This document shows positions 21,240-52,867 of a stretch of DNA of 60,451 bases, piece after piece. The notes below the pieces were generated by a model. It was not told where the DNA came from. It made no database searches and saw only the letters and a program-made list of their open reading frames with translations. Origin of the DNA: a virus; IMG/VR virus record IMGVR_UViG_3300043449_000416, positions 1-60,451 of that record. One strand, written 5' to 3'. Within the stretch, counting starts at the first letter, position 1. Each line of letters starts with the position of its first letter. Made by a program: the position numbers and the translations under genes.

Positions 21240-21431
21240 TCAGTCCGCAATAAATCTTTTCTCTAGGTCCTTTACGTCATCGTACATGCGCTGGAGCGCC
21301 GTATATTCCCCGACGCTCCGGCAATAATCCTCATAGCTCTTGGCACCGCCCGTTGCGAGGTGGTGCTCAATGGCTGACTTCTGCTCGTTCAGACCGCGAA
21401 TCATAAAGGCAAAGATGGTATCTTCCATCAC
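21240..21431 (-). CDS. Hypothetical small protein (63 aa)
   Basis: ORF with 4-nt overlap to the portal stop. Confidence 0.35.
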   Translation of the reverse strand: MMEDTIFAFMIRGLNEQKSAIEHHLATGGAKSYEDYCRSVGEYTALQRMYDDVKDLEKRFIAD

Positions 21432-23917
21432 TGGCCCCCAGCGTTAGGCGATTTGCGCGCTTGGAGCAGCCGTGCCGCCTCGATGGCGAGGCGCGTGCCA
21501 TCCATCTGAGCTTTGACATTCTCTTTCGCAGCGTCAGTGGCAAGCTTTGCCATGGTGTTTGCCGCGGATCGGTCGTTCTCGCTCTCGACACGCTCCTGCT
21601 GGATGTAGAGGTTTCCAGCGCTGGTGGCGGCGCTGACCTGCAGTTTCTTGTTGTCGAAGTCGATCTTGTGCTGCAGTTCTTTCTCTTTGATGTCCAACTC
21701 GCGCATCTGGATGATAGTGAGCGGGTCCTGTGCCTGCTGCTCTGCCGTAGCGGCCTGCTGCTCTGCCTGATTCTTGTTGAACAGCTTGGCTGCGGCCTGA
21801 GCAACCATACGGGACAGCTGCACCTCGACTTCCTCGGGCAGCGGCTCGCCCTCGGGCGGCAGCGGAACACCGAGGTTCATCTCGATCTCTTTGCGATACT
21901 GATAGGCAACGTGCTCGGTAATATGCGCCATGGCAGCCCCTTGAATAGCCTGCGCGAAGGGCGACTGGCCGACCATCTGAGCAATCTTCGGGTCCTGCAT
22001 CGCGGCCATGTGGGCAGCAATATGTGCTTCGTGGTCTTGGTAGAGGAACGCTTTGACAGGGGACTGCTGCAACAGCGCCATATTCTCGGCCACTGGGTCC
22101 ATGGGCTTCATATCTGCCGGAGACTTAATGATGTCCTTAGCGTCTTGGATGCCCAGCACCTCGAGCATCTGTGAGTGCAGCTTGCCCATATCGTACAGCT
22201 GCGGAGCCTGCTGTGATAACTGCAGCGCGGCCTGATACTGCATGATCCGCTGCGCCATGGTGGCGGCGTTAGGATCAGATACCGGGATTATATCCACGCG
22301 CCCATCAAAGTCCTCGATGCGGTTGAAGTCACCGTCCATCTCGTAGGCATACTGCTCTGGCATGTAGTCATGCACGATCCGCGCGAGGATGCGTAGTTCC
22401 TGCTTCATAGCTGCGTGCAGGCGGGCTTGAACACCCGACATAACCTTCAAACTGCGCTCGAGCAGGGCGAGCGTGGTACCCACCGGTGCGTTTGCACTCA
22501 TGTCACCCACTTGGATGTCAGCCACGGAGCCGATGCGACGGCCTTCCTCAACCACGTTACCCAGCAGGGTATACAGGACGCTCGATGGCTCTTTGTACGG
22601 CATCGGGAACAGGCTCTCGCGGAGCGTACCTCCCGTCACGTCAGCGTCTCTCCACTCACCGGGCATCAGCGGGGTGTTGTCACCCTTGATGCGCAGGCTC
22701 CGGGCCTTGAGGCCCGCTGGGAGGTTAGACAGGGTGCCCGCATCGATGAGCTGCCGCAGGATTGACGTCGCAGACTTAGCCAGACCGCCGATCAGATGAA
22801 TTAGTCCCGTACCGTAGAACCCCATACCCGGCAGGTAGGGGTAGTGGGTGAAGTGCATCAGCTTGCGCTTCTTCGCGTCATCTTCCTTCCAGTTACGGCG
22901 GATAGCGAGAACAGTCCGAGAGGTCTTGTCGATTGTGATGACGTAAGGCCGTGCCACGCCATCCTCATCCTCGAACGGCTCCGGCAGGTCGATGTCCACG
23001 TGCATTTCCAAGAGTGTACGGCGCGGATCATCCTCGAATGTCTGCTCCTCCCCCGCCAGCTCGGCGTATTTCTCCTCGATGTCGGTGAGGTCTTTCTCCG
23101 CATCAGGCAGCTCGACATCGCGGTAGAAGCCAACAACCTGCAGCTCACGGACCTCATTGTCGGTCTTCTTCATCACATGTGTGAACCGTGGGCAGACGCG
23201 CAGGTTAGACGCGCCGTAGGAGACCACGAGGTCCTCAGCAGGAACAAAAATGGATGAGGGGAGCTCTGTGATGGGATCGTAGTATGTCTTCTTGAACGCT
23301 GACCCGGCCAGCGGGAGGCGGAACAGCATCAGCTCCATCTCGTCGCGGTAGTCCGGCATCTCCTCAGTGATGAGGTAGTTCATCTCATTCTGGACGCGGT
23401 TAGCTTGGTCAGCCTTCTCGGGGGTAAGTTTACCCATGATCTTTGTCCGTACCGGCCCCGAGGCGGGCATCAGCTCGCTCATTGCCTGCGCTTGGAACCG
23501 CACCACGGCCTCGGTCAGCATCGGGTGATAGACACCGGAGGCACCGGCCCAAGGCTGCGTGCGGTCCTCGATCTTCATCCCCAGCAAGTCCAAGCCGGTA
23601 ATATAGGCCGACGCCCAGTCCTTGCGGCTCTCACGATCAGAGAGAAAAGATCCAACCAGCTCACTGGCGATACTCTCAAGCTCCCCATCGTCAATGATTT
23701 CGGCGAGGTTGGTGTCGTGGGCGGTCATGTCCGCGCCCGTATCGTCCTCACCATCGCCGAAGTCGACTAGGACCTCACCGGTATCCGCATCGATTTGGAT
23801 TGATGGGTCTTCTTCCGTCGCGATGGATACTTCAATCTCGGTATCGTCCTGCGGCCCGAACTCGAACGGCGTCATCGGCTTCTCGATTGCCATGGCATAT
23901 CCCCTGTAGGTCTCCAC
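21428..23917 (-). CDS. Putative portal protein
   Basis: 829-aa ORF immediately downstream of the terminase gene; size and position are typical of portals. Confidence 0.55.
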   Translation of the reverse strand: METYRGYAMAIEKPMTPFEFGPQDDTEIEVSIATEEDPSIQIDADTGEVLVDFGDGEDDTGADMTAHDTNLAEIIDDGELESIASELVGSFLSDRESRKDWASAYITGLDLLGMKIEDRTQPWAGASGVYHPMLTEAVVRFQAQAMSELMPASGPVRTKIMGKLTPEKADQANRVQNEMNYLITEEMPDYRDEMELMLFRLPLAGSAFKKTYYDPITELPSSIFVPAEDLVVSYGASNLRVCPRFTHVMKKTDNEVRELQVVGFYRDVELPDAEKDLTDIEEKYAELAGEEQTFEDDPRRTLLEMHVDIDLPEPFEDEDGVARPYVITIDKTSRTVLAIRRNWKEDDAKKRKLMHFTHYPYLPGMGFYGTGLIHLIGGLAKSATSILRQLIDAGTLSNLPAGLKARSLRIKGDNTPLMPGEWRDADVTGGTLRESLFPMPYKEPSSVLYTLLGNVVEEGRRIGSVADIQVGDMSANAPVGTTLALLERSLKVMSGVQARLHAAMKQELRILARIVHDYMPEQYAYEMDGDFNRIEDFDGRVDIIPVSDPNAATMAQRIMQYQAALQLSQQAPQLYDMGKLHSQMLEVLGIQDAKDIIKSPADMKPMDPVAENMALLQQSPVKAFLYQDHEAHIAAHMAAMQDPKIAQMVGQSPFAQAIQGAAMAHITEHVAYQYRKEIEMNLGVPLPPEGEPLPEEVEVQLSRMVAQAAAKLFNKNQAEQQAATAEQQAQDPLTIIQMRELDIKEKELQHKIDFDNKKLQVSAATSAGNLYIQQERVESENDRSAANTMAKLATDAAKENVKAQMDGTRLAIEAARLLQARKSPNAGGQ

Positions 23918-24201: not shown

Positions 24202-26688
24202 CTAGTAGTAATCAACTTTTCTTCTGTATGGCAGCTCTTCATCCAGCTCATCTGTCGGCAGGCGGATGAACCCCCCTTGGCGGAACCGCATCAGGGCCAT
24301 TATTGTCGTGTCGCAGTTGTGGACCAGCACACCGTTAGCGTAGTAGCAGTGAGTGTCAGCTACCGTCAGGTTGTATACTGGCTTTTTCTCTTCTCCTACG
24401 TTTATACTGTCTACTTGCGCACGTGTTGCCGCAAAGTTCGGCCCGGCCAGAAGACGATAGAAACTGCGTACTGCACTCCTTACAGGTACGGATAACCGGG
24501 TTTTCAGCCTGCTCTTTGAGCTTTTTCTCTCTAGCCTCACGGGCGGCCCCACCAAGTTTAAGGTACTTAGCTGTGCGATCTCTGTGCCAAGCTCTACCTT
24601 CCTCTGAACGGTGCCACTCGCTCGCCTTGCCACGAACCCTGTTAAGCAGGGCAAGTTGCTCGGGGCTTCTCGCTCTAATGCTGCGCTCTTCGGAGTGGCG
24701 TCTGCAGTGCTCTTCGCGAGATACGCACTCAAGGTTAGTGACGCCGTTGTTATCCCAATTTCCGTCCTTGTGGTGAACCTCCCAGCCGTCTGGAATAGGC
24801 CCATTGTGGAACTCCCACACAGCGCGGTGCAAGTTGAACCCTCCGGCTCGCTGAAAATACTTCCGAAGAGACGCTCTCGGAGAGTTCGGATAGCGGTTGT
24901 AAGTGTAGCCGTTGAACACAACAGACTCCGTGTGAACTTCTGGTTTAGTCGGCCACGGCATTTGCGCCCCCATTGCTTGGTCACCTTTACTGTATCAGTC
25001 ACAGTAATAGTGTCAAGACGCTTCCACCCGCACGTTGTGGCGATTGGGTGGTTCCCGGTGCCTTCCAGAGTGTGGCCTCCAGCGCGCAGAATAAATGTAT
25101 TTCGCACCCCTGTGCAACCTGCGGCCTGTACCACTTTCGCCCCCGCTGGCGTTTTAACGACGTCCCCGATCTTTATTGTTTCAATAGGTTGCTCTATTCC
25201 ATCAGCCATCAGAACTTGCGTTCCGGCTACAAAACAGTGGTCGTCGTTTTCAGCGAACGGGAATCCTGCAACTTCCTCGACCAGCTCCTCTGCCCACCGT
25301 TTAGGCGGCACCCAGACCAGCCCCGAGGAGATGATATCAGACACAGAGTTCAGACGCGCCATCTTGCTATTCGGGTTGTTTACCGAGCCCCTGACAGGGG
25401 TGTACTCCTGCACCATGAGCCCCGAGCGGCGCATCTCCTGATACAACGGCGTCCCCGAACTCTTTTTCTCGACGATGAACACGTCGGGTTCCCACTGCTG
25501 ATACTCCTCCAGAGCCAACGCTTTGAGCTCTGGAAACTCCATGCGCCGCTTGATGGCATTGAGCAGGATGATCTGGTGCATGTTCTCCTCGTCATTGAAG
25601 AACACTCCCCACGTTGTCAGAGACGTGAAGTCAGCCCGGTTGTGGGCTTCTGCAGCGGCGTCGAGAGACATGATGATATACTCTACAGCCGGTGGGTCGT
25701 CGTCTGGCCACAGCCGCCACCAATCTCTCTTGATTATGGCAGCTTCTTCGCCCGTCGGATTCTGCTGATACTGCGCGTTCCACTGGAACACCGGCATGGA
25801 GGCCTTGGTCCGCAGCAGTGCTTGTAGATCAAAAAACTCAGGCCAGAGGGCTCTTTGAATTATATTTTCTTCACCAGTGACGTTGTCTTTCTGGACTACG
25901 TCTAAAATAGCCGGAAACTCCACCACCTCATATTGGTCGGAGTTCTCGTTGTTGGCCATATCTTGAATAAGGCGTCCTGTTAGATCTTTTTTATGCCATC
26001 TTGTATGGACCACGGCCACGCGCCCCCCGGGCATCAGACGCGTCCGGGCCCCGAAGGCGAACCATTCGTAAGCTTTGTCGAATGCCGTGAAGTTTCCGTT
26101 CAAGATATCCTGCTCGGAGTGCGGGTCGTCGACGAGCAGCAGGTCAGCGCCGCGGCCCGCGAGGGCCGATCCCACGCCCGTGGCGTAAAACTCGCATCCT
26201 GTGGTCGTGTTCCAGCGCCCAGCCGACTTGCTGTCAGAGGACAGCGCGAGGTTCGGGAAGACCTGCTGGTAGGGCTCAGAGTCGATGATATTCCGCACCT
26301 TCCGACCGAAATCGACGGCTAGGTCCGTCGTATGCGAGACCAACATGACCTTTTTCCCGGGGTTTCGACCGATGAACCATGCAGGATAGTAGGTTGAGAC
26401 GAGCTGAGACTTGCCGTGGCGGGGTGGGATGTTGACGCAGACCCTGTCTTTGTCCCCCCGCTCGATGTCCATGAGCTCATCCGCTAGAATTCTATGGTGT
26501 CGGCCCACCTTATAGGTACGGTCCATATACTTACAGAAGGCAATCAGGTCATCCTTGGCACCCTGCAGCGTGGCGCGCTTGTCCAACTCCTCGAGCATTT
26601 TCTCGATCTCGAGCAGTTCCTGCTCGTCGAGCATATCCACGCTCTTGAGGAGCGTTTCGAGCTCTGCTCGATTGAAGTCGGAGCTCAT
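24202..26688 (-). CDS. terL: Terminase large subunit, interrupted by an intein
   Basis: Walker A (IPPRHGKSQ), Walker B (ADLLLVDDPH) and a C-terminal nuclease region; intein blocks CFVAGTQVLMADG... (A), TGNHP (B) and ...YYANGVLVHN/CDTTI (F/G). Confidence 0.85.
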   Translation of the reverse strand: MSSDFNRAELETLLKSVDMLDEQELLEIEKMLEELDKRATLQGAKDDLIAFCKYMDRTYKVGRHHRILADELMDIERGDKDRVCVNIPPRHGKSQLVSTYYPAWFIGRNPGKKVMLVSHTTDLAVDFGRKVRNIIDSEPYQQVFPNLALSSDSKSAGRWNTTTGCEFYATGVGSALAGRGADLLLVDDPHSEQDILNGNFTAFDKAYEWFAFGARTRLMPGGRVAVVHTRWHKKDLTGRLIQDMANNENSDQYEVVEFPAILDVVQKDNVTGEENIIQRALWPEFFDLQALLRTKASMPVFQWNAQYQQNPTGEEAAIIKRDWWRLWPDDDPPAVEYIIMSLDAAAEAHNRADFTSLTTWGVFFNDEENMHQIILLNAIKRRMEFPELKALALEEYQQWEPDVFIVEKKSSGTPLYQEMRRSGLMVQEYTPVRGSVNNPNSKMARLNSVSDIISSGLVWVPPKRWAEELVEEVAGFPFAENDDHCFVAGTQVLMADGIEQPIETIKIGDVVKTPAGAKVVQAAGCTGVRNTFILRAGGHTLEGTGNHPIATTCGWKRLDTITVTDTVKVTKQWGRKCRGRLNQKFTRSLLCSTATLTTAIRTLRERLFGSIFSEPEGSTCTALCGSSTMGLFQTAGRFTTRTEIGITTASLTLSAYLAKSTADATPKSAALEREAPSNLPCLTGFVARRASGTVQRKVELGTEIAQLSTLNLVGPPVRLERKSSKSRLKTRLSVPVRSAVRSFYRLLAGPNFAATRAQVDSINVGEEKKPVYNLTVADTHCYYANGVLVHNCDTTIMALMRFRQGGFIRLPTDELDEELPYRRKVDYY
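24316..25236 (-). other. Intein within terL (aa 485-791 of the precursor)
   Basis: N-terminal Cys after ...FAENDDH, C-terminal HN followed by +1 Cys; boundaries computed from the ORF. Confidence 0.75.
24356..24973 (-). CDS. HNH endonuclease ORF nested inside the terL intein, in a different reading frame
   Basis: HRAVWEFHNGPIPDGWEVHHKDGNWDNNGVTNLECVSREEHCRRH is an unambiguous HNH motif; the ORF exactly fills the gap between the intein N- and C-terminal splicing blocks and has a GGTGA-like RBS upstream of its ATG. Confidence 0.7.
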   Translation of the reverse strand: MGAQMPWPTKPEVHTESVVFNGYTYNRYPNSPRASLRKYFQRAGGFNLHRAVWEFHNGPIPDGWEVHHKDGNWDNNGVTNLECVSREEHCRRHSEERSIRARSPEQLALLNRVRGKASEWHRSEEGRAWHRDRTAKYLKLGGAAREAREKKLKEQAENPVIRTCKECSTQFLSSSGRAELCGNTCASRQYKRRRREKASIQPDGS

Positions 26689-27263
26689 CTTTCGCCCTCT
26701 TCGCCCTCTTCGTGGTCGTCGTAGGACACTTCCGCGTCCTCTACGCTATCTGGCGTCACATCGATCATCTTCTCCAGCTTTCTGCGCAGGCGTTCCCGCA
26801 GATCATCGCTCGTCTGGTGCATGATCGTGATCTCTTGCTTCTCAGTGAAGAGCCCGACGTCAGAGACCTTTCCTAAAAGTTCCAACGCCTTCACCCGGAT
26901 ACGTGCATCGGGGTTCTCCGTCTCCTGAATGAGCTTGTTGACCACCATATGACGCACCTGAGCCGCCTCTTCGACGATCTTGTGGCCGTAATCCTTGAGA
27001 ATCTTCTCTGTAAGAAGGAGGGCGGCGGGTGTTTTGCGGGTGATTGCCTTTACCGCAGAGCGGGTCTGCAGCGCAGATGGGTTTCTTGCCGCCTGTCTGG
27101 CCGTCGTCGCAGCGTCGTCGAGGTCTTCATCGCCGAATTCGATGTCTAATCCTGCAGCTTCGAGAAGCCGGGCCGTACTTGCAGCGGCGGATAAGGTGGA
27201 CATGAACCCGTCGGGGGTACCCTCGTCAGAGAGGGGCATATCTAAGTCAATTTTTAGTTCCAT
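26685..27263 (-). CDS. Putative terminase small subunit / DNA-packaging protein
   Basis: 192-aa ORF immediately upstream of terL with ATGA overlap; acidic termini; first gene of the minus-strand arm. Confidence 0.35.
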   Translation of the reverse strand: MELKIDLDMPLSDEGTPDGFMSTLSAAASTARLLEAAGLDIEFGDEDLDDAATTARQAARNPSALQTRSAVKAITRKTPAALLLTEKILKDYGHKIVEEAAQVRHMVVNKLIQETENPDARIRVKALELLGKVSDVGLFTEKQEITIMHQTSDDLRERLRRKLEKMIDVTPDSVEDAEVSYDDHEEGEEGER

Positions 27264-27719
27264 GGGTGCACCCTTTAGGGAGATTTTGCACAGTATAGGG
27301 TGGATTTTTAGTTTTTGGGAGTCCCTTTCCTACGAAGGGGGGCTCGCCTTTTGCAGAGTTGTGACTCAGCGGCGAAAATGAAGGGGGAGGGGGTATATTT
27401 TGTTATAATCTGACGCTATCTAGTGTATTTCGTTGTGTTTAGTTGTGTTTTGCTATGTTTTAGTGTATTGTACTGAAATAGCGCTGTATTTATGTGGAAT
27501 AGTATTACTATACAGCATACACGCCGCCGCCCGCCCAAGGGGGGTGCCCCCCGGTGGGGGTCGGGATATGCCAGAAAAGCGCGTTAGTCGCCGGACTAAT
27601 ACTAGTAAACTGTACTAGGCGCGCCCAAAAGCTACACTTAGCTATCAAATAATGCAATAAAGGTTTTGTCGAAGGGCAATAACGCCACGACATTCAATCT
27701 AATCGGAAAGAATCTAATC

Positions 27720-28334
27720 ATGTCGAAAACAATCGAACCTACCCTTAAAAACCTGATCGATTTCGGACGCAAGGCGGTCGACACCACGGACCGCGCTGAA
27801 ATCAGCCGCGCGGCCTTCATCGACAGTCTTGTTGCGGCGGGATACACCGCTTCAAATACCGCGTCTTATAAGGCGAGCGATCTGAAAGCGGGTGTCGTCA
27901 CGAACGCGAACGTGATGCACCGGGCGAACCTGCTTTACATCGCCGCCGCGTCTATCAAGATTAAGGGCAAGCGGCTTTCAGAGACCGATCTGGCCAAGTT
28001 TGCAGATGAAGCGGTATCGAACAAGGTTCTGCTATCTGGTACGGCCAAGGGCAACTTGTCCGGCACCGTGACATGGCTGGGCAATGCCACGTCGTGGTTG
28101 GGCAAGGTTCGCAAGGACCTTGAGGCGCGGGAAGCGCAAGGGCAAGACGTGGCCGGGACGCCGCGGACACCTTCGACTGACGCTGATATCATCCTTGGAT
28201 ATCTCCAGAAGGCGTACACTAAAACCTTTAAGGATGACGTGAACCTGAAATGCGACCTTGCCGATCTGCAAAAAGAATTGCGGCACGTGGCCAAGTCGCT
28301 GGGCGCGGACCTGAAAGCTCCGGTAAAAAAGTAA
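27720..28334 (+). CDS. Hypothetical early protein (204 aa)
   Basis: First ORF of the plus-strand arm; start taken at the first ATG (MSKTIEP...); followed by an intrinsic terminator. Confidence 0.45.
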   Translation: MSKTIEPTLKNLIDFGRKAVDTTDRAEISRAAFIDSLVAAGYTASNTASYKASDLKAGVVTNANVMHRANLLYIAAASIKIKGKRLSETDLAKFADEAVSNKVLLSGTAKGNLSGTVTWLGNATSWLGKVRKDLEAREAQGQDVAGTPRTPSTDADIILGYLQKAYTKTFKDDVNLKCDLADLQKELRHVAKSLGADLKAPVKK

Positions 28335-28341
28335 GACCATC

Positions 28342-28370
28342 GGGCGATGCGAAAGCATCGCCCTTTTTTT
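28342..28370 (+). terminator. Rho-independent terminator
   Basis: GGGCGATGC-GAAA-GCATCGCCC stem-loop followed by TTTTTTT, directly after the stop at 28334. Confidence 0.65.
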
Positions 28371-28441
28371 GTGTCCAAAATCCTGCGCCACCAAACGCGC
28401 GGGGCCCCCGAGACCAGTTCTCAAGGCCGCATCGAGCAGCT

Positions 28442-28459
28442 GTTAGGGGTCGGACTAAC
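28442..28459. repeat. GTTAG-N-CTAAC hairpin family member
   Basis: gttaggggtcggactaac; preceded by the gcatcgagcagc motif shared with the copy at 28665. Confidence 0.5.
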
Positions 28460-28664
28460 GATGTTCTGGGGGTCGGGGGTTTTCGGGGCCGCGTAATTTT
28501 ATTACGTTTGGCGGCTCCTCTGCTAGTCAGCGACTATCCCCTCGGGATCGTCATGACGACGCTTAGGAGTCTACCAAGTAATTTTATTTCGTCAAGGGTT
28601 TTTACGCCTCTAAGTCAAAAATAGTTGGAAACCAGTTTTTAGGACAGCATCGAGCAGCGCAGGC

Positions 28665-28682
28665 GTTAGGCCCTCGACTAAC
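28665..28682. repeat. GTTAG-N-CTAAC hairpin family member
   Basis: gttaggccctcgactaac, preceded by gcatcgagcagc. Confidence 0.5.
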
Positions 28683-28699
28683 AATTCACTAGATGTTGT

Positions 28700-29170
28700 T
28701 TTTTAGACCCCTCAAACACAAGATGTGGGGTCGATCAACATTTAGTATTTTGGACCCCTCCAACACAAGACAAAAAACGCTTGTGTTTATGTGTAGGTAT
28801 TGTTCTATCAAATGATGTAATGTTACCAATTTTTATCGTCTAAGTCATTGAAAACAAACAATGTTCCGTCTTTTTTGTAATGTTACCGATTGGTGGTCCG
28901 TAAGCCATTGAAAACAAACAATGTTCCTAATGTTCCGTCCAAAATAGACACACCCGACCTTTGCGTTCGGGAGGCAGGGGACTCCCTAAAACCACCCCGC
29001 CAACTCCTCGGTCTCGCATCTCTAATTTTGCCGGACTTTGGTAACATTTAGAACATTGCAGTCTTTTCAAGGGCTTATATATATATTATTAGTAACATTA
29101 CATATAACATTAGGACATTACACCGCCTACCACTAAAGTGAACCAGATAGCACTATTTTGTACCATTTAC
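28700..29170. repeat. AT-rich noncoding region with direct repeats / iteron-like AACATT-AATGTT motifs
   Basis: Two copies of gacccctc(a/c)aacacaag; two copies of gtaatgttacc(a/g)att...agtcattgaaaacaaacaatgttcc; multiple taacatt/aatgttcc units; no credible ORF. Confidence 0.55.
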
Positions 29171-29198
29171 TTGACTTAGCCAGCCAATGTGGTATTAT
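29171..29198 (+). promoter_or_regulatory. Sigma70-like promoter (TTGACT-N16-TGgTATTAT)
   Basis: -35 TTGACT at 29171-29176; extended -10 tgg-TATTAT at 29190-29198; about 80 nt upstream of the first gene of the early operon. Confidence 0.45.
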
Positions 29199-29278
29199 GG
29201 TATTAGTTGTTATGTATCCTGAGTCCCCCTGCCCCCGCGGCCTGTGCCGCTAGTCCGCCGCCTAACAAGGAGCCAAGT

Positions 29279-29533
29279 ATGACCAAAGACCAACTGCGCA
29301 CCCTGCTTTCTATCCTTGTCCCCGCTGCCACGGCGCGTGGCGACATCTACCATTTCACCCGCGTAGGGTCGGGCAATGCCCCCGGCAAGATGGAGACCAT
29401 CAACGGTGTTAGTCTGGCGACTAACGAGCAACCCCAAGTGCGTCCCGCGCGCCCACGTCGCATCTACCAGCGCCAAGGCGTCTACGGTGCAGGGTTCGAG
29501 ATTCCTACGTACAAGCCCCACCAAAAAACCTGA
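29279..29533 (+). CDS. Hypothetical protein (84 aa)
   Basis: ATG preceded by AAGGAG; start refined from track ORF 29207..29533. Confidence 0.5.
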   Translation: MTKDQLRTLLSILVPAATARGDIYHFTRVGSGNAPGKMETINGVSLATNEQPQVRPARPRRIYQRQGVYGAGFEIPTYKPHQKT

Positions 29534-29536
29534 CCT

Positions 29537-29554
29537 GTTAGTCCACCGACTAAC
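29537..29554. repeat. GTTAG-N-CTAAC hairpin family member
   Basis: gttagtccaccgactaac, about 28 nt upstream of the next ATG and followed by an AAGGAG RBS. Confidence 0.55.
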
Positions 29555-29581
29555 ACCAACCCCAGAACAAGGAGAAATCAA

Positions 29582-29884
29582 ATGCAGACAGAACGCACCA
29601 TCAATTTTCGCATCGACGCCGACACCATCATCAACATCGCGGAGATTGCGGGCAACGCCGAATTCTTCCGTGCCATAGGCTACCTTGCACAATGGAACCC
29701 AAGTCATGCCATCTGCGAAATCATCGGCGGCGTGTACGACGGCAACCCCGAGATCATTGCAACCTATCGCCGCGAAGAACGAGGCCCCATCACCTACCAG
29801 ATCGGTGCCGTGTGGCACGAAGGGAAATCTATCGACGGGCTGACGGGCGAACCCCTGCCCGGACACTTCGGCTTCCACTCCTAA
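29582..29884 (+). CDS. Hypothetical protein (100 aa)
   Basis: ORF with RBS caaggagaaatcaaATG. Confidence 0.5.
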   Translation: MQTERTINFRIDADTIINIAEIAGNAEFFRAIGYLAQWNPSHAICEIIGGVYDGNPEIIATYRREERGPITYQIGAVWHEGKSIDGLTGEPLPGHFGFHS

Positions 29885-29910
29885 CGCCAACCGTTAGGCC
29901 GCGCCCTAAC
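29881..29910. repeat. Two overlapping GTTAG/CTAAC palindromes
   Basis: ctaacgccaaccgttag overlapping gttaggccgcgccctaac, in the intergenic region upstream of 29939. Confidence 0.55.
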
Positions 29911-29938
29911 AGGCTAAACAAAACAAGGATCAAATGAA

Positions 29939-30220
29939 ATGCAGACCCAACAGACCCAACGCTTCGAATCCCTCACACTCTCGCTGCCCGCACACTGGAT
30001 CGTGCCCGTGCTTTATGGTGACCTGTCCCCTCTTGACGAGGCTGAGGCTGTCGCCTTTGATCGCTGGCTGGCGGATACAATCCGCGAAGTCGGACATGGG
30101 AAAACCCCACTCATCGGCACGATCCACGATCAGGCCTACTTCGCCCGTTACCACGACGCTGCCGAATACGGCGTGCTGGCGTGTGACTGCTACGACGTTG
30201 AACTTCTGGTGGAAGAATAA
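29939..30220 (+). CDS. Hypothetical protein (93 aa)
   Basis: ORF with RBS. Confidence 0.5.
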   Translation: MQTQQTQRFESLTLSLPAHWIVPVLYGDLSPLDEAEAVAFDRWLADTIREVGHGKTPLIGTIHDQAYFARYHDAAEYGVLACDCYDVELLVEE

Positions 30221-30670: not shown

Positions 30671-30688
30671 GTTAGGCCAGAGCCTAAC
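30671..30688. repeat. GTTAG-N-CTAAC hairpin family member (perfect palindrome)
   Basis: gttaggccagagcctaac followed by acaaggagaaatgatATG. Confidence 0.6.
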
Positions 30689-30947: not shown

Positions 30948-31311
30948 ACCGAGAAAACATAGCCACTGGGCCGCTAGGCCGCGGCTAAAATTCCTCGGGG
31001 GCGTAGCCGAATTTGACCTGTGGTGGAGGGACGACCAGTCAGCGCCGGGTATCCCGAGCGGCGACATCCTGCCGTATTTGCGCTTGGTGACTATAGATAT
31101 GCCATCCGTAGACGACTGGGACGAGCTCCGCGTACCGCTGCATCTGAACGAGGAGACGAACTCAAGTATGGAGCCCGCGATGCGCAGACTCAAGGGCAGG
31201 TGGGGCTGTATAAATCTGACCCTAGCGCAGCTGGCCGAGATACGCACATACCTGCAATGCTTCGCCCCGTGGGTGTTAGGAGGAAGGCTAACAGATGGTC
31301 AACAAACATAA
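30940..31311 (+). CDS. Hypothetical protein (123 aa), paralog of 33211..33516
   Basis: Shares EPR...WAAR...FLGG...FDLW(W/F) and L..L...YL..FAPWV motifs with the 33211 ORF. Confidence 0.5.
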   Translation: MLEPRKHSHWAARPRLKFLGGVAEFDLWWRDDQSAPGIPSGDILPYLRLVTIDMPSVDDWDELRVPLHLNEETNSSMEPAMRRLKGRWGCINLTLAQLAEIRTYLQCFAPWVLGGRLTDGQQT

Positions 31312-31564
31312 CGGCAGCGGCAGCGGCTACGGCAGCGGCAGCGGCACCGGCAGCGGCACCGGCTACGGCAACGGCAGCGGCTACGGCAGCGGCAGCGGCA
31401 CCGGCTACGGCAACGGCAGCGGCTACGGCTACGGCACCGGCACCGGCTACGGCAGCGGCAACGGCAACGGCTACGGCGACGGCAGCGGCAACGGCTACGG
31501 CAGCGGCAACGGCAACGGCTACGGCGACGGCAGCGGCAACGGCTACGGCGACGGTAAGGGTTAG
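31295..31564 (+). CDS. Gly/Ser/Tyr/Asn-rich low-complexity repeat protein (89 aa)
   Basis: Translation is almost entirely (GSG/GNG/GYG)n, encoded by tandem ggcagcggc/tacggc/aacggc units; AGGAGG RBS upstream. Confidence 0.5.
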   Translation: MVNKHNGSGSGYGSGSGTGSGTGYGNGSGYGSGSGTGYGNGSGYGYGTGTGYGSGNGNGYGDGSGNGYGSGNGNGYGDGSGNGYGDGKG

Positions 31565-32265: not shown

Positions 32266-32283
32266 GTTAGGCCGGAGCCTAAC
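32266..32283. repeat. GTTAG-N-CTAAC hairpin family member (perfect palindrome)
   Basis: gttaggccggagcctaac followed by accaaggagaaactaaaATG. Confidence 0.6.
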
Positions 32284-32300: not shown

Positions 32301-33209
32301 ATGAACAACGTCACACAAATGGAACTGAACTTCGCACCTGTGGTGCAGTCAATCTCATCGTCGTCCATGCTGGTCGAGCTGGGCATCGGCGTATGGACCG
32401 GGCGGCGCATGGACAAGCGCGCATCCGAGGAAGTCGTCGCTGCCAACCATGCCGATAAGGGCGTGGCGCGGGTGACCAAGAGCCTACTGGGGGCCTGTGA
32501 TGAACTGGACGCGCTCGTGAAGTTCGCAGCAAACGTGCGGAACATCCACTACAACAGCACCCTGCCTTGGTCGGACATGGGCCCGCGTCTGCTCCCCACC
32601 CCGCGCTACTTCGCATACCACAAGAACATGAGCGCCTTGCAGACAGAGTTCTTCCGCATGGTGGACGCGTTCGTCGCTGCTTACGATCTTGAGGTGGCTG
32701 CGGCACAGGCCAAGCTGGGTGACCTGTTCGATGTTAGAGAGTACCCTAACGCCTCCGAGTTGCGTCAGAAGTTCTCGTTCAAGTTCAACTACATCCCCCT
32801 GCCTGACGCTGGCGACTGGCGGCTCGACATCAACAACGAAGCACTAACATCACTTCGGGACCAATACGCCACGCACTACACGGGACAGCTGACCGCGGCC
32901 ATGAACGACATCTGGAAACGCCTCTACGAAACGCTGACCACGCTGTCGCGCCAGCTATCCGACAAGACCGAGGATGGTAAAACGCCGCGCATCTTCGCCT
33001 CTGTGTTCGACCGCATGCAGGAGGTACTGGACCTGATGGAGACGTGCAACATGACGGGCGACATGACCATGCAGTTGATGCAGCGCAAGCTGGCAGCGGC
33101 CTTCAATGGGGTCAGCGCCGAGGCTGTCAAAGACGATGCCTACTTACGCCGTAACACAAAGCAGGCTATCGACGTGGCCATCAAGTCCCTGCCTAGCTTG
33201 GGCTGGTAA
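32301..33209 (+). CDS. Hypothetical protein (302 aa)
   Basis: Well-formed ORF with RBS; first gene after the internal promoter; precedes the MoxR/VWA block. Confidence 0.55.
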   Translation: MNNVTQMELNFAPVVQSISSSSMLVELGIGVWTGRRMDKRASEEVVAANHADKGVARVTKSLLGACDELDALVKFAANVRNIHYNSTLPWSDMGPRLLPTPRYFAYHKNMSALQTEFFRMVDAFVAAYDLEVAAAQAKLGDLFDVREYPNASELRQKFSFKFNYIPLPDAGDWRLDINNEALTSLRDQYATHYTGQLTAAMNDIWKRLYETLTTLSRQLSDKTEDGKTPRIFASVFDRMQEVLDLMETCNMTGDMTMQLMQRKLAAAFNGVSAEAVKDDAYLRRNTKQAIDVAIKSLPSLGW

Positions 33210-40730: not shown

Positions 40731-40768
40731 CACTAAAAAATACTAAACAACGCTAACGCGTGTATAAA

Positions 40769-45358: not shown

Positions 45359-45621
45359 TTGCCATGCCATACACGAAGTCGCCGCGTCCTTATAAGGCCG
45401 AATACCAGAAACAAATAGAACGTGGTGAGCACCCGGACCGCATGGAGCGGCAGCGTGCTCGGCGTGCCTTGGACAAGAAGGGCGTTGACCGCACAGGCAA
45501 GGACGTGAGCCACAAGAAAGCGTTGGCCAAGGGGGGCAGCAACGCTGACGGCTATAAGCTAGAGAGCCCCTCGAAGAACCGTAGCCGGAACGGCCATAAA
45601 CCCGGTGAGAAAAAAGGTTAG
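45355..45621 (+). CDS. Small basic hypothetical protein (88 aa)
   Basis: Arg/Lys-rich ORF ATGA-coupled to the upstream gene. Confidence 0.4.
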   Translation: MIAMPYTKSPRPYKAEYQKQIERGEHPDRMERQRARRALDKKGVDRTGKDVSHKKALAKGGSNADGYKLESPSKNRSRNGHKPGEKKG

Positions 45622-45634
45622 GGAAAACCCTAAC
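45617..45634. repeat. GTTAG-N-CTAAC hairpin family member (perfect palindrome)
   Basis: gttagggaaaaccctaac, immediately upstream of the helicase start. Confidence 0.6.
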
Positions 45635-45649
45635 GTCTCGGAGAACGAT

Positions 45650-49671: not shown

Positions 49672-49749
49672 TCCTTAACAGGCTCACCGCGACGGGGGAT
49701 AAAAATAACCTCACCTCGTCGCGGCACCCCAACAGGAAGAGTGGCGGCA

Positions 49750-52608
49750 ATGGATACAACGACGTTTTTGCGGTCCGTTCTTGGGACTGCGGGCTCCTAC
49801 TGCGTTCTTGCGCTCAGCGAGGGCAGACGCATCCAGAAGTTCTACGATACCATCGAGCAGCTTGAGCACGCTGCGCTGAACTTCGATGAAAATGGTTTCG
49901 ATGCCTACTACGCCCTTGGTACGTTCGAGGAAGCAGGGTCACGTGAAGCCGATAACGTCAAGCAGATGCGCGCGTTCTTTATGGACCTCGACTGTGGCGT
50001 TAACCTCAAGACGGGCAAGGACAAGGAATTCTCTGACCAGCATACTGCTATCTTGGCGCTCAGGGAGTTCGTTAAGACTACCGGGCTGCCCCGCCCGTTC
50101 TTAGTCAACTCCGGCTACGGTGTGCACGTTTACTGGCCACTGACCGCGCCCGTAGACTTTATGACGTGGCTCCCGGTTGCGGAGAAGCTAAAGGCGCTGG
50201 CCAAGGCCAAAGGCTTTAAGGCCGATGAGGCTGTGACTGCTGACGCCGCTCGGGTGCTACGAGTGCCGGGGACGCATAACCACAAGGGCGACGATCCTAA
50301 ACCCGTCAGCTTTTTCGGCATTGCGGAGCCTACCCCCGTCGAGTTCTTTGACTTTGCTGCACGGCTAGAGACTGTTGCTGGTAGTCTGCCGACTAACCTT
50401 CCTACCAGACGCTACTCACCTGCGGTGACAAACAGTGCAATGATGGACGCGCTGATTGGTAAGCGTGAAGCGTCGTTTAAAGCTATCATGCAGAAGACTA
50501 TGGCGGGTAAGGGCTGCGCCCAGCTGGCCTACTGCATCGAGAACCGCGCTGATTTGGATGAACCTATGTGGCGCGCGGCGCTCTCTATTGCCAAGCACTG
50601 CACCGATATGGCTAAGGCCGTGAAGGCTGTATCGCAGGGTCACGCCGGATACGACGAAGATGAAGCGATGTGGAAGGCAGACCGCATTAAGGGGCCCTAT
50701 CTCTGTACGCGCTTCGAGGAGTACAACCCGGGTGGGTGCCAAGGCTGCCCCAACTGGAACAAGATCAAGTCACCCATCGTCCTTGGTCAGCAGTTCACTG
50801 AGGCTACGCCCGAGGATAACACCATCGTCGTAGCTGACCCGCAAGCGCCCGAGGCACCACCGAGGGTCTATGAAATCCCGGCCTATCCAAGCCCCTACTT
50901 CCGCGGCAAGGACGGCGGGGTGTTTATCCGTATAATTGACGACGAGGGTGAAGTCAGTGAGCGGATTGTCTGGCACCACGATCTATACGTCGTGCGCCGT
51001 TTGTATGACCCAGAGCAGGGTGAAATTATCGAGATGCGGCACCACCTACCCAGAGACGGGGTTAGGTCTTTCGTGGTGCCCCTCTACGTCGTTACGTCGA
51101 AGGAAGAGTTTCGAAAAGTCCTCGCCACCAATGGCGTCATAGCGATCAACAAGGAAGTGGACGCAATTATGAGCTTTACGCAAAGCATGGTTAAAGACCT
51201 GCAGATTACCACGCAGGCAGACAACGCGCACCGCCAGTTCGGCTGGCTGCCCGACTTCAAGGGGTTCGTTCTTGGGGATAAGGTGATCTACGAAGACCGT
51301 GTCGATTTCAACGCACCGTCAGCCGCAACACGCGGGATGATTGAGTTCTTTGAACCCGAAGGCACTCTCGATGGATGGCGCTCTGCGGTTAATTTCTATA
51401 ACCGCCCCGGCTTCGAGCTGCATCAGTTCATCACCTGCGTCGGTTTCGGCTCGGTGCTGATGAAGTTTCTTCCGATCAACGCCGCGCTCCTGCATATCTG
51501 GTCGAAGGACTCCGGTTTCGGTAAGACGCACGCCCAGTATGCGGCGCTATCGATATGGGGTGATCCTCGTAAGCTACTACTCCAAGAGCGCGATACCCAT
51601 AACTCCCGCATGAACCGCGCCGATGTGATGCACAGTCTGCCGGTCTGCATGGACGAGATCACCAACATCAAGCCCCAAGACGCTTCCGACATGATCTATC
51701 AAATCACCGGGGGTCAGCAGCGCAATCGCATGTCTTCAACAGGCAATACAGAGCGTTATCGCGGTGATCCTTGGAACCTACTATTCGTGACGTCGGCAAA
51801 CTGCAGTCTGATCGATAAGGTATCTATGGCCAAGGCAATGCCGAAAGCGGAAGCCCAGAGGGTTCTGGAGATCGAGACGAGTAAGCTCTTTACCGAGAAG
51901 GCTGACAAGCGCCAGACCGATGAGTTCAGTGCCAAGGTCCAGAGCAACTACGGCCACGCGGGCATCCTGTTTGTGCAGTACGTGATGTCCAACCTTGCGG
52001 AGACGAAGCTCCTCGTCGAAACACTGCAACGTAAAATCGATGAGGCCGCAGACCTTGGCCCGGAGAACCGTTTCTGGTCGGCAGCTGTTGCCACCTCTCT
52101 CGCCGCTGCGGTGATCTGCAAGCACCTAGAGCTCTTGGACTATGACATACCCACACTGCGCGACTACATCATCAAGAACATCCTCAAGGCCAACAAGATA
52201 GTCAGCGCTGAGATGTCCCTTGACCCGATGGACCTCGTGACAGCCTACACCTACCAGAACTTGGGCCGTATTCTGCAGATCAAGTCCACTATCGACCGTC
52301 GCAGCAAGGAGAACGGCAACGGCATAGATGATCTAGTTGTGCCGGACCAGCAGCCCAAGACTGCCGACATAATCGGGCGCTACGAGACCGATCTGCACGT
52401 GTTGTACCTTCTGCCGTCCCCGTTCAAGGTCTGGTTGGCCGAGCAGCAGGTCAACTACAACTCAGTTATTGCCGAGCTCAAGGTCAAGTATAATGCCAAG
52501 AAGTCCAAGGTGCGGCTGACGAAAGGCACCAAGATGCAGATGCCCGTGGCCGATACCATCGAGATACCGATTGTTCTGGGCGACGTTAATGGCGAAGAAA
52601 GTAAATGA
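49750..52608 (+). CDS. Primase-polymerase (PrimPol) fused to an SF3 (D5-like) helicase
   Basis: FMDLDCGV and RVPGTHNHKG primase-polymerase motifs in the N-terminus; Walker A SKDSGFGKT and SF3-type downstream motifs in the C-terminus; start taken at the first ATG. Confidence 0.75.
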   Translation: MDTTTFLRSVLGTAGSYCVLALSEGRRIQKFYDTIEQLEHAALNFDENGFDAYYALGTFEEAGSREADNVKQMRAFFMDLDCGVNLKTGKDKEFSDQHTAILALREFVKTTGLPRPFLVNSGYGVHVYWPLTAPVDFMTWLPVAEKLKALAKAKGFKADEAVTADAARVLRVPGTHNHKGDDPKPVSFFGIAEPTPVEFFDFAARLETVAGSLPTNLPTRRYSPAVTNSAMMDALIGKREASFKAIMQKTMAGKGCAQLAYCIENRADLDEPMWRAALSIAKHCTDMAKAVKAVSQGHAGYDEDEAMWKADRIKGPYLCTRFEEYNPGGCQGCPNWNKIKSPIVLGQQFTEATPEDNTIVVADPQAPEAPPRVYEIPAYPSPYFRGKDGGVFIRIIDDEGEVSERIVWHHDLYVVRRLYDPEQGEIIEMRHHLPRDGVRSFVVPLYVVTSKEEFRKVLATNGVIAINKEVDAIMSFTQSMVKDLQITTQADNAHRQFGWLPDFKGFVLGDKVIYEDRVDFNAPSAATRGMIEFFEPEGTLDGWRSAVNFYNRPGFELHQFITCVGFGSVLMKFLPINAALLHIWSKDSGFGKTHAQYAALSIWGDPRKLLLQERDTHNSRMNRADVMHSLPVCMDEITNIKPQDASDMIYQITGGQQRNRMSSTGNTERYRGDPWNLLFVTSANCSLIDKVSMAKAMPKAEAQRVLEIETSKLFTEKADKRQTDEFSAKVQSNYGHAGILFVQYVMSNLAETKLLVETLQRKIDEAADLGPENRFWSAAVATSLAAAVICKHLELLDYDIPTLRDYIIKNILKANKIVSAEMSLDPMDLVTAYTYQNLGRILQIKSTIDRRSKENGNGIDDLVVPDQQPKTADIIGRYETDLHVLYLLPSPFKVWLAEQQVNYNSVIAELKVKYNAKKSKVRLTKGTKMQMPVADTIEIPIVLGDVNGEESK

Positions 52609-52807: not shown

Positions 52808-52867
52808 TATTGTGTGCCTGACAGAACAGCTCGCCGCCCGCTTGCCTACTGTCGGTTCTCCCAACTG

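What the first reader, a model, noticed from the sequence alone, without database searches (positions are those of the whole stretch)
28335..29278. Roughly 940-bp noncoding, repeat-rich region in an otherwise compact genome: candidate origin or regulatory hub
After a strong terminator (28342-28370) comes a long ORF-free stretch with two copies of a gcatcgagcagc...gttagg...actaac unit, two copies of gacccctc(a/c)aacacaag, two copies of about 50 nt (gtaatgttacc...agtcattgaaaacaaacaatgttcc), many AACATT/AATGTT iteron-like hexamers, a TATATATATAT tract, and then a near-consensus sigma70 promoter (29171-29198). Iterons plus an AT-rich tract are typical of replication origins; the region could also encode small RNAs.
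Basis: seen in the sequence. Interest (0 to 1): 0.65.

Follow-up and report, generated by a model that had tools for sequence, protein, structure and literature searches.

The report
Likely phage replication origin module
The gene-free stretch is real and conserved: its right half is a mirror-symmetric cluster of protein-binding repeats beside the phage's main early promoter, most likely the replication origin (unproven), and its left half is a variable set of small cassettes of unknown role.

Summary
The window is a complete, circularly assembled genome of an uncultivated lytic phage. Positions 28335-29278 lie between the late (terminase) end and the early genes.

The stretch has two parts:
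- **Left half (28371-28800).** It differs between relatives and holds 2-4 small cassettes.
- **Right half (28808-29124).** This ~320-bp module is conserved across a wide phage family. It has ten copies of YAATGTTMC, five on each strand, with mirror-image spacing around a ~100-bp centre. Three IHF-consensus-like sites sit between repeat pairs. A (TA)5 tract is the least stable duplex in the whole genome.

A consensus sigma-70 promoter follows. In some relatives it is swapped for a different promoter while the module is unchanged.

Variation between relatives breaks the potential long hairpin instead of compensating, so these are double-stranded DNA binding sites, not an RNA. The phage encodes a primase-helicase of the SaPI Rep / SCCmec Cch family, whose studied members bind inverted iteron sets at their origins.

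My best reading is a replication origin (confidence about 0.45). Rivals are a P1/SPP1-type pac site and an operator array for the early promoter. No experiment or read data could separate them.

The parts
28342..28370 (+). Intrinsic terminator of the 207-aa gene (27711-28334).
   Evidence: One search found a 9-bp stem with 7 G-C pairs, a 4-nt loop and a T7 run. In relatives the stem changes compensatorily (GGGCGGTGC...GCACCGCCC) or is replaced by another hairpin plus T-run.
28410..28459 (+). Variable-region module 1: GAGACCAGTTCTCAAGGCCGCATCGAGCAGC followed by the palindromic motif GTTAGGGGTCGGACTAAC (28442-28459).
   Evidence: (D2, D4). Relatives carry 2-4 such modules at this place. Its function is unknown. 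It has no match in 185,579 bacterial and archaeal genomes.
28508..28595 (.). Optional cassette. It is a long imperfect hairpin (28508-28578) overlapping an invariant 40-mer (28556-28595). The reverse complement of the 40-mer reads as a leftward sigma-70-like promoter: TTGACG, 16 nt, TGgTAGACT.
   Evidence: The promoter match on the - strand is at 28595 to 28568. The cassette is present in the window, L015, L009, L032 and L020, and absent from the L002 lineage. RNAalifold keeps the stem, with compensatory changes in L020. Folding z-scores are modest: -1.3 on + and -2.3 on -.
28628..28682 (+). Variable-region module 2: GAAACCAGTTTTTAGGACAGCATCGAGCAGC followed by GTTAGGCCCTCGACTAAC (28665-28682).
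   Evidence: (D2, D4).
28706..28787 (+). Two hairpins built on the repeated GACCCCTC(A/C)AACACAAG. The first is 28706-28732. The second is 28762-28787, followed by TTTATGTG. They may stop + strand transcription before the module.
   Evidence: I read these from the sequence. At the same place the L002 lineage has a clear terminator, TTTGACC-CCTT-GGTCAAA plus T5.
28815..28936 (+). Left arm of the module: two direct ~60-bp units. It holds five YAATGTTMC sites on the + strand (28818, 28859, 28878, 28919, 28928). It also holds two TAAGYCATTGAAAA elements (28841, 28901) whose reverse complement is IHF-consensus-like.
   Evidence: Motifs are kept while spacers vary in relatives. Nucleotide identity to L018 is 80%.
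28937..29037 (.). Centre of the module: 101 bp, 56% G+C, no repeats. It contains a 22-mer, CGCCAACTCC(T/A)CGGTCTCGCATC, that is invariant among close relatives only.
   Evidence: Identity to L018 is 66%. More distant relatives have a different sequence here. The 22-mer has no match in bacterial genomes.
29038..29124 (-). Right arm of the module: an inverted copy of the unit plus two extra sites. It holds five sites on the - strand (29041, 29050, 29092, 29104, 29112), an IHF-like site (29065-29077) and the (TA)5 tract (29076-29086).
   Evidence: (I1, I5). It is 94% identical to L018, against 80-82% for the early genes and 60% for the 207-aa gene. It is the least stable duplex of the genome at window sizes of 20, 40, 60 and 100 bp.
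29171..29198 (+). Early sigma-70 promoter: TTGACT, 16 nt, TATTAT, with a TG extension.
   Evidence: It is conserved in L002, L009, L015 and L018. In L022, L024 and L025 a different consensus promoter (TTGACA, 17 nt, TATACT) replaces it while the module is unchanged.
29249..29272 (+). Palindromic motif copy GCTAGTCCGCCGCCTAAC, then the Shine-Dalgarno sequence AAGGAG of the first early gene (ATG at 29279).
49741..52608 (+). Proposed trans-acting initiator: a 955-aa primase-helicase. It has an N-terminal AEP-type primase region, a DUF927 / MCM-like AAA+ helicase of the SaPI Rep / SCCmec Cch family, and a C-terminal winged-helix-like domain.
   Evidence: Pfam DUF927, E 1.3e-26. PHROG primase/helicase and primase families. 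PDB sequence matches to 5dgk (Cch, 2.5e-12), 8tch (SaPIbov1 Rep, 3.7e-9) and 6zp9 (AEP, 0.008). The AF2 model of the C-terminal 476 aa (pLDDT 81) matches Cch and Rep over nearly the full chain (Foldseek E 1.5e-17 and 5.5e-14).

Best explanation
The conserved right half (28808-29124) is the phage's replication origin. It sits just upstream of the main early promoter.

**Proposed mechanism (inferred, not shown)**
1. The winged-helix C-terminal domain of the phage's Rep/Cch-type primase-helicase recognises the ten YAATGTTMC sites.
2. Host IHF bends the DNA at the three WATCAR-N4-TTR-like sites. Each of these lies between two sites about 41 bp apart, so each arm folds into a compact complex.
3. 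The two arms are mirror images, so two helicase rings load in opposite orientation.
4. Melting starts at the (TA)5 tract in the right arm, helped by transcription from the adjacent promoter.
5. The fused primase domain then primes synthesis.

**Shown:** the anatomy, the conservation pattern, the duplex-stability minimum and the family of the helicase.

**Inferred:** who binds the sites, and that replication starts here.

The variable left half (28371-28800) is not part of the origin. It holds terminator-like hairpins and 2-4 exchangeable cassettes of unknown role.
For: 1. **Ordered architecture.** Five sites lie on each strand. Spacings are 41, 19, 41 and 9 bp on the left, then a 113-bp gap, then 9, 42, 12 and 8 bp on the right. 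This is close to a mirror image about position ~28988.
2. **Uniqueness.** These motifs occur essentially nowhere else in 60 kb.
3. **Motifs kept, spacers free.** Relatives keep the motifs while spacers and the centre drift. The right arm is 94% identical where neighbouring genes are 60-82%.
4. **Family-wide conservation.** The AATGTTCC arrays and the TAAGTCATTGA element persist in a wide family, with terS down to 33% identity, always at the same junction.
5. **DNA sites, not a hairpin.** The potential 57-pair hairpin shows no covariation (score 0.040 against 0.036 for shuffles; 225 of 500 shuffles reach it), and variable positions mostly break pairs.
6. **IHF-like sites.** The second motif equals the IHF consensus exactly in most relatives. 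In the window it has one mismatch, and 3 of the 6 relaxed matches in the genome lie here.
7. **Most meltable DNA.** A 20-bp window at 29075 has -16.6 kcal/mol against a genome mean of -29.6 (sd 2.7). A 40-bp window has -38.6 against -59.2 (sd 3.9).
8. **Initiator family.** The genome encodes a primase-helicase homologous in sequence and predicted fold to SaPI Rep and SCCmec Cch. SaPI Reps are self-loading initiators. Their winged-helix C-terminal domain binds 6-12 short iterons, arranged half on each side and in opposite orientation (PMC9371898).
9. **Conserved binding surface.** The predicted winged-helix region keeps many invariant residues among homologues only 40-48% identical overall. That fits an invariant binding site.
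10. **Autonomous module.** The promoter next to it is swapped in some relatives and its distance from the module varies (about 50, 60 and 85 bp).
Against: - No experimental or read-depth data exist for this phage.
- Unlike SaPI origins, the arrays are 20 kb from the helicase gene. None of 80 relatives has arrays within 6 kb of that gene.
- The centre between the arms is 56% G+C. The AT tract lies inside one arm instead.
- Across the family the module stays 1.4-2.1 kb from terS and directly upstream of the early promoter. That linkage fits a packaging site or a promoter control region equally well.
- GC skew gives no support. The cumulative minimum is near 31 kb, and the + strand just right of the module is C-rich (skew -0.19), opposite to the bacterial leading-strand rule.
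- That the helicase domain binds this motif is pure inference.
Confidence: 0.45

Rival explanations
1. The module is a packaging recognition site (pac) of the P1/SPP1 kind. The small terminase binds the repeat arrays on both sides, IHF bends the DNA, and the large terminase makes the first cut in the ~100-bp centre. Headful packaging then proceeds from there.
For: - Two repeat arrays plus IHF-like sites flank a repeat-free centre. By my recollection this is also the layout of P1 pac, and lambda cosB has an IHF site between Nu1 sites.
- Across the whole family the module stays 1.4-2.1 kb from the start of terS.
- The contig assembles as a circle (127-nt overlap). The nearest TerL relatives include Mycobacterium, Microbacterium and Gordonia phages that I recall as circularly permuted headful packagers, but also a Caulobacter phage annotated with terminal repeats.
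- Close relatives share an invariant 22-mer in the centre.
Against: - A gene with its own terminator, plus the variable cassettes, separates the module from terS. Known pac sites lie in or beside terS.
- A pac site has no need for the genome's most meltable tract.
- TerS identity falls to 33-38% in lineages that keep the same 8-mer.
- Another strictly conserved GC-rich element (27526-27560) lies 260-300 bp upstream of terS, in the other non-coding stretch. It is an alternative candidate for a packaging signal.
- Metagenomic contig ends scatter over the region and do not pile up at one point.
Confidence: 0.2
2. The module is an operator or enhancer array that controls the adjacent early promoter. 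A phage early or late protein, or a host factor, binds the ten sites. With IHF it forms a looped complex that shuts off or boosts early transcription, as the Mu repressor does at O1-IHF-O2.
For: - In every lineage the module lies 40-100 bp upstream of a consensus sigma-70 promoter.
- In L110 one site lies inside the promoter spacer.
- In most relatives the first gene after that promoter is the conserved 302-aa gene (window 32301-33209), followed by the AAA and vWA genes.
- IHF-like sites are present.
Against: - The promoter module is exchanged independently of the array, and the distance between them is not fixed.
- Ten sites spread over 320 bp with mirror symmetry are more than known phage operators need.
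- No DNA-binding regulator was recognised among 39 proteins scanned against Pfam, many of them also against PHROGs or NCBIfam.
- The 207-aa neighbour has no known fold. Alleles of it that are 50% and 69% identical to the window's protein go with the same array.
Confidence: 0.17
3. The region encodes small non-coding RNAs. Either the inverted units form a long RNA hairpin, or the left-half cassettes are sRNA genes.
For: - The module folds far better than shuffled controls as a single strand (z -4.4 on +, -6.5 on -).
- The 28508-28595 cassette has a conserved stem with a few compensatory changes and a conserved promoter-like sequence on the - strand.
- L051 has two paralogous hairpin-plus-terminator cassettes with compensatory differences.
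Against: - Rfam finds nothing, even at E up to 1, and there are no tRNAs.
- No sigma-70 promoter points into the module.
- Variation breaks the module's predicted pairs instead of compensating. The good folding energy follows trivially from inverted binding-site arrays.
- The cassettes are present in only some lineages.
Confidence: 0.06
4. The module is an attP site: arm-type sites flanking a crossover core, for integration into the host chromosome.
For: Inverted arm-like arrays with IHF-like sites around a ~100-bp centre resemble lambda attP.
Against: - No integrase or excisionase was found in 39 proteins scanned against Pfam.
- The conserved central 22-mer has no match in 185,579 bacterial and archaeal genomes.
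- The centre is the least conserved part.
Confidence: 0.02

Closest known systems
SaPI origins with their Rep / PriRep self-loading helicases, and the related SCCmec Cch (PMC9371898)
   Same: - The initiator candidate is homologous in sequence and predicted fold, including a primase fusion like PriRep5 of SaPI5.
- There are ten short repeats, within the 6-12 range, split into two sets pointing in opposite directions.
   Different: - The arrays are 20 kb from the helicase gene, not directly downstream of it.
- The repeats are 8-9 bp, not 5-6 bp.
- The space between the sets is 56% G+C, and the AT tract lies inside one arm.
- IHF-like sites are present.
- The carrier is a lytic 60-kb phage of a Gram-negative-type lineage, not a staphylococcal island.
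Classical iteron + IHF + AT-rich origins (R6K gamma, pSC101, oriC) and phage P4 ori/crr bound by the alpha primase-helicase. These are from my own knowledge and were not tested here.
   Same: - The combination of repeated initiator sites, IHF bending sites and an easily melted tract.
- P4 also uses a primase-helicase that binds short repeats in both orientations.
   Different: - There are no DnaA boxes.
- The arrays are mirror-symmetric rather than a single tandem block.
- The initiator family is different.
P1 pac, SPP1 pac and lambda cosB. From my own knowledge.
   Same: - Repeat clusters on both sides of a central region.
- An IHF site.
- Closeness to the terminase genes.
   Different: - The module is not in or next to terS.
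- It contains a strongly meltable tract.
- No cleavage data exist.
Phage Mu operator region O1-IHF-O2-O3. From my own knowledge.
   Same: Many short repressor sites and an IHF bend directly upstream of, or overlapping, the early promoter.
   Different: - The phage shows no sign of lysogeny or of a repressor gene.
- The array is separable from the promoter.

Membership tests
Origin of the SaPI Rep / Cch self-loading helicase type | The same genome encodes a Rep/Cch-family initiator helicase. | tested here: met
   Sequence matches to 5dgk (2.5e-12) and 8tch (3.7e-9). Fold matches at E 1.5e-17 and 5.5e-14 over about 500 and 440 columns. Pfam DUF927.
Origin of the SaPI Rep / Cch self-loading helicase type | The initiator carries a C-terminal winged-helix domain that reads the iterons. 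| tested here: inconclusive
   The AF2 model ends in strand-strand-helix-helix-strand-strand (fragment residues 400-464). Foldseek aligns 504 columns of the 511-residue Cch chain. I saw no residue-level alignment, and DNA binding cannot be tested with these tools.
Origin of the SaPI Rep / Cch self-loading helicase type | Six to twelve short iterons, about half on each side, pointing in opposite directions. | tested here: met
   Ten sites, five per strand, with mirror-image spacing.
Origin of the SaPI Rep / Cch self-loading helicase type | An AT-rich region at the centre, between the two iteron sets. | tested here: not met
   The centre (28937-29037) is 56% G+C. The AT-rich minimum of duplex stability (29075-29115) lies inside the right arm.
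Origin of the SaPI Rep / Cch self-loading helicase type | The origin lies immediately downstream of the rep gene. | tested here: not met
   There are no repeats in 52609-52895. No arrays lie within 6 kb of the gene in 80 relatives.
Origin of the SaPI Rep / Cch self-loading helicase type | The initiator binds and melts the site, and replication starts there. | not testable with these tools
   This needs EMSA or footprinting, marker-frequency analysis, or a plasmid replication assay.
pac site of the P1 / SPP1 kind | Repeated small-terminase binding motifs flank the cleavage region, with a bending site. | tested here: inconclusive
   The architecture is compatible. Binding and cleavage cannot be tested here.
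pac site of the P1 / SPP1 kind | The site lies within or directly beside the small terminase gene. | tested here: not met
   The module starts 1.55 kb from the terS start (27263). A gene, a terminator and the cassettes lie between them.
IHF binding site | A match to WATCAR-N4-TTR with an A/T-rich flank. | tested here: met
   Exact in most relatives that were checked, with 1-3 per module. In the window there is one mismatch (TTTCAA...), and 3 of the 6 relaxed matches in the genome are here. Whether the unknown host has IHF was not tested.
Sigma-70 promoter | -35 and -10 hexamers with 16-18 nt spacing. | tested here: met
   10 of 12 positions match, plus a TG extension. The promoter is conserved, or replaced by another consensus promoter, in relatives.
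lambda-type attP | An integrase gene, and a core identical to a host attB. | tested here: not met
   No integrase was found in 39 proteins scanned against Pfam. The central 22-mer has no genome match.
Described non-coding RNA family (Rfam) | A covariance-model match. | tested here: not met
   No match at gathering score over the whole window, and none at E up to 1 in 27200-29700.

The most novel reading that the evidence does not exclude
The stretch could be the control centre of a gene-expression system not yet described.

- **The hairpin motif.** Each lineage of this phage family places its own perfect, sequence-defined hairpin in front of most early genes. In the window it is GTTAG-N8-CTAAC, with 25 copies against 1 expected. 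Relatives use GCTAG..CTAGC, GTTAGC..GCTAAC, GTAGTG..CACTAC and others.
- **The link to this region.** The same hairpins, paired with conserved CCAGTTCTC...GAGCAGC modules, pile up in the non-coding left half.
- **What the hairpins might be.** They could be single-stranded promoters read by an unrecognised injected polymerase, as in phage N4. Or they could be RNA sites for a co-evolving processing or translation factor.
- **What the left-half modules might be.** They could be the master sites or decoys of that system.
Probability: 0.12. Interest if true: 0.75.

Novelty: new variant of a known kind. Interest (0 to 1): 0.42.

Why it matters
- **A testable origin.** It would give a precise origin candidate (about 320 bp) for a widespread, uncultivated freshwater phage family distantly related to the abundant HTVC023P-type pelagiphages. 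No cis-acting site is known for these phages.
- **Wider reach for Rep/Cch helicases.** If confirmed, the iteron logic of these self-loading helicases would extend from staphylococcal islands and SCCmec to lytic phages. The layout would be different: the origin is far from the helicase gene, uses IHF, and has its meltable tract off-centre.
- **Practical use.** A defined origin plus initiator pair could seed replicons for hosts that currently have no genetic tools.
- **If it is a pac site or operator array instead.** It still marks the key control point between the late and early gene blocks.

Tried and rejected
- **DNA similarity to known phages.** None, either for the region or for 25 kb of the genome.
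- **Rfam and tRNA scans.** Nothing found.
- **The neighbouring 207-aa gene as the binding protein.** The AF2 model (pLDDT 77) has no match in PDB, and its only good BFVD match is an uncharacterised protein. Very different alleles go with the same array.
- **Long hairpin or cruciform under selection.** Rejected, because there is no covariation.
- **Physical genome ends inferred from contig ends.** Ends scatter over 27.3-29.4 kb with no fixed point. The 127-nt terminal overlap fits an assembler k-mer overlap (my inference).
- **Named distant relatives.** The Caulobacter phage RW record has a 2.9-kb end duplication that starts inside terL. It is uninformative. DSL-LC04 and HTVC023P have different layouts at this junction.
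- **attP.** No integrase and no host match.
- **A transposable element (MITE).** Rejected: the module is single-copy, stays at a fixed locus across the family, and has no genome hits.
- **Arrays next to the helicase gene in relatives.** None in 790 kb.
- **The giant 2105-aa virion protein as an N4-like polymerase.** No support from Pfam, PHROG or PDB sequence searches.
- **The 302-aa first conserved early gene.** No family or PDB match.
- **GC skew.** It is confounded by gene orientation.
Full report
**1. Context**

The first and last 127 nt of the window are identical. It is therefore a complete, circularly assembled genome of about 60.3 kb.

Gene layout:
- **1-27263, - strand:** structural and packaging genes. 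These include the capsid, the portal (21428-23917), a large terminase containing an intein (24202-26688) and a probable small terminase (26685-27263).
- **27711-28334, + strand:** an isolated 207-aa gene with its own terminator.
- **29279-52608, + strand:** small early genes, then an AAA/vWA pair, family A DNA polymerase, an SNF2 helicase with an intein, and a 955-aa primase-helicase.
- **52896 to the end, - strand:** a 2105-aa polyvalent virion protein and further genes.

I found no RNA polymerase, integrase or partition gene. The genome has no nucleotide similarity to any deposited phage. The portal is about 40% identical to those of Pelagibacter phage HTVC023P, phage DSL-LC04 and others. 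The finding therefore sits at the junction between the late-gene end and the early-gene start.

**2.

AACATT is not enriched genome-wide (19 found, 19.7 expected). But 10 of the 19 lie within 375 bp here. The longer form AATGTTMC occurs 8 times against 2.9 expected, and 7 of those are here.

No ORF over 54 codons exists in the stretch, and none is conserved.

**3. Comparative data split the stretch in two**

I retrieved relatives in four ways: through the flanking proteins, through terS, through conserved DNA words, and through exact-protein look-ups.

*Left half (28371-28800).* It is rearranged between lineages.
- It holds 2-4 copies of a module, CCAGTTCTC...GAGCAGC, each next to a copy of an 18-nt palindromic motif.
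- It holds terminator-like hairpins.
- In some lineages only, it holds a cassette (28508-28595). This is a long imperfect hairpin plus an invariant 40-mer, whose reverse complement reads as a leftward sigma-70-like promoter.

*Right half (28808-29124).* It is a discrete conserved module.
- Downstream of it, the promoter segment is exchanged in L022, L024 and L025 for a different consensus promoter, while the module stays the same.
- Compared with L018, the right arm is 94% identical, the left arm 80% and the centre 66%. The two early genes are 80-82% identical and the 207-aa gene is 60%.

**4. Anatomy of the module**

- The ~60-bp unit occurs three times: twice directly (28815-28867 and 28875-28936) and once inverted (29038-29103).
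- Each unit carries YAATGTTMC sites and one TAAGYCMTTGAAAA element.
- There are ten sites in all, five on each strand. Spacings are 41, 19, 41 and 9 bp, then a 113-bp gap, then 9, 42, 12 and 8 bp. This is close to a mirror image.
- The second element, read on the other strand, is the IHF consensus WATCAR-N4-TTR. It is exact in most relatives and has one mismatch in the window. It always lies between two sites about 41 bp apart.
- The spacer of the inverted unit is the (TA)5 tract. The DNA at 29075-29115 is the least stable duplex of the entire genome at window sizes of 20, 40, 60 and 100 bp.
- The centre is 56% G+C and has no repeats.
- As a single strand the module folds well. However, on an alignment of seven lineages the 57 long-range pairs show no covariation, and variable positions mostly break pairs. 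Motifs are kept while spacers change. This is the signature of protein sites on duplex DNA, not of an RNA or a cruciform under selection.

**5. Breadth**

A loose word search found further, much more distant lineages, with terS 33-57% identical. They share the same AATGTTCC arrays, often as 9-bp tandem triplets. They also share the same TAAGTCATTGA/IHF-like element, an unrelated centre, an AT-rich patch and a consensus promoter.

The module always lies 1.4-2.1 kb from terS. It is always directly upstream of the early operon, which in most lineages starts with the homologue of the 302-aa gene (window 32301), followed by the AAA and vWA genes.

**6. Who could bind it**

- **The 955-aa protein (49741-52608).** It has an N-terminal primase region and a helicase homologous to SCCmec Cch and SaPI Rep, both by sequence and by predicted fold over almost the full chain. 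It ends in a winged-helix-like domain.
- **What is known of that family.** SaPI Reps are self-loading initiators. Their winged helix binds 6-12 short iterons, placed half on each side of an AT-rich region and in opposite orientation (PMC9371898).
- **Support from conservation.** The predicted winged-helix region is rich in invariant residues among homologues only 40-48% identical overall.
- **No other candidate origin.** The gap after the helicase gene has no repeats, and this module is the only non-coding repeat cluster in the genome.
- **The counter-argument.** The arrays are never near the helicase gene in 80 relatives. They stay linked to terS and to the early promoter.

**7. Weighing the readings**

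- **Origin (0.45).** Iteron arrays in mirror orientation, IHF-like bends, the genome's meltable extreme, a matching initiator family and independence from the promoter module together make this the best reading.
- **pac site of the P1/SPP1 kind (0.20).** It shares the two-arrays-plus-IHF layout and the linkage to terS. Against it are the intervening gene and terminator, and the meltable tract. A separate, strictly conserved GC-rich element nearer terS (27526-27560) is also a candidate packaging signal.
- **Operator array for the early promoter (0.17).** It fits the constant position upstream of the promoter. It fits less well with the promoter swaps and the variable distance.
- **sRNA (0.06) and attP (0.02).** Both are weak.
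- **GC skew.** It cannot decide, because it follows gene orientation, and locally it runs against an origin.
- **Contig ends.** They scatter and give no terminus.

**8. The palindromic motif**

GTTAG-N8-CTAAC occurs 25 times with up to one mismatch, against 1.1 expected. All but two one-mismatch hits lie between 27.6 and 52.7 kb. About 12 of the 18 exact copies end 0-30 nt before a Shine-Dalgarno sequence or start codon.

Other lineages carry different perfect stems with loops of 3-8 nt at equivalent places. This points to a hairpin read by a co-evolving factor. Three or four copies lie in or next to the finding. What the motif does is unknown.

**9. Verdict**

The feature is real and conserved. 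It is most likely the replication origin beside the early promoter, and a variant of a known kind. Interest is moderate. The origin reading is circumstantial, and the experiments listed under next steps would settle it.

Noticed in passing
27583-52749, for example 29537-29554, 30671-30688 and 32266-32283; also L020, L051, L112, L120 and L122: The palindromic motif GTTAG-N8-CTAAC occurs 25 times against 1.1 expected. Nearly all copies lie in the + strand early/middle block, and most end just before a Shine-Dalgarno sequence. Related phages use different perfect stems (GCTAG/CTAGC, GTTAGC/GCTAAC, GTAGTG/CACTAC, GTTATAC..., GTGTCA...) with loops of 3-8 nt. This suggests a lineage-specific hairpin regulon whose reader protein is unknown.
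   Followed up: partly
28414-28440 and 28632-28658; also L112, L100, L122 and L051: A conserved module, CCAGTTCTC...GAGCAGC, occurs 2-4 times per phage. It is found only in the non-coding stretch left of the repeat module and always sits beside a hairpin-motif copy. It has no promoter match and no hit in bacterial genomes.
   Followed up: partly
27526-27560: The GC-rich element CAAGGGGGGTGCCCCCCGGTGGGGGTCGGGATATG is 100% identical in five lineages. It lies in the other non-coding gap, between terS and the 207-aa gene. It could be a packaging signal or a leader structure.
   Followed up: no
27424-27450: A 10-bp tandem repeat (TGTGTTTAGT, 2.7 copies) lies in the divergent promoter region. The aligned relatives lack it, so it looks like a recent insertion or slippage.
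   Followed up: partly
24202-26688 and 45605-48064: Both the large terminase and the SNF2 helicase carry intein (Hint) insertions.
   Followed up: no
40760-41287: A protein with the N-terminal domain of dATP/dGTP diphosphohydrolases (MazZ-like, E 9e-36). This hints at nucleotide-pool manipulation or modified DNA. No PurZ-like gene was seen.
   Followed up: no
52896-59213: A 2105-aa polyvalent virion protein (LPD39 domain; C-terminal region shared with DarB-like giant proteins). It sits in the position that I recall the virion RNA polymerase gene holding in phage N4. No polymerase signature was detected.
   Followed up: partly
29001-30000, and the same place in relatives L112 and L120: The + (coding) strand just right of the module is strongly C- and A-rich (GC skew -0.19). 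This is unusual for a coding strand in this genome.
   Followed up: no
31310-31554 and 36181-36255: Long in-frame hexamer repeats lie inside early genes: AACGGC about 41 times and GGTCAG 12.5 times. They encode low-complexity protein segments.
   Followed up: no
1-127 and 60325-60451: The two ends of the window share an exact 127-nt overlap. The window is a circularised assembly, so its ends are not physical genome ends.
   Followed up: yes
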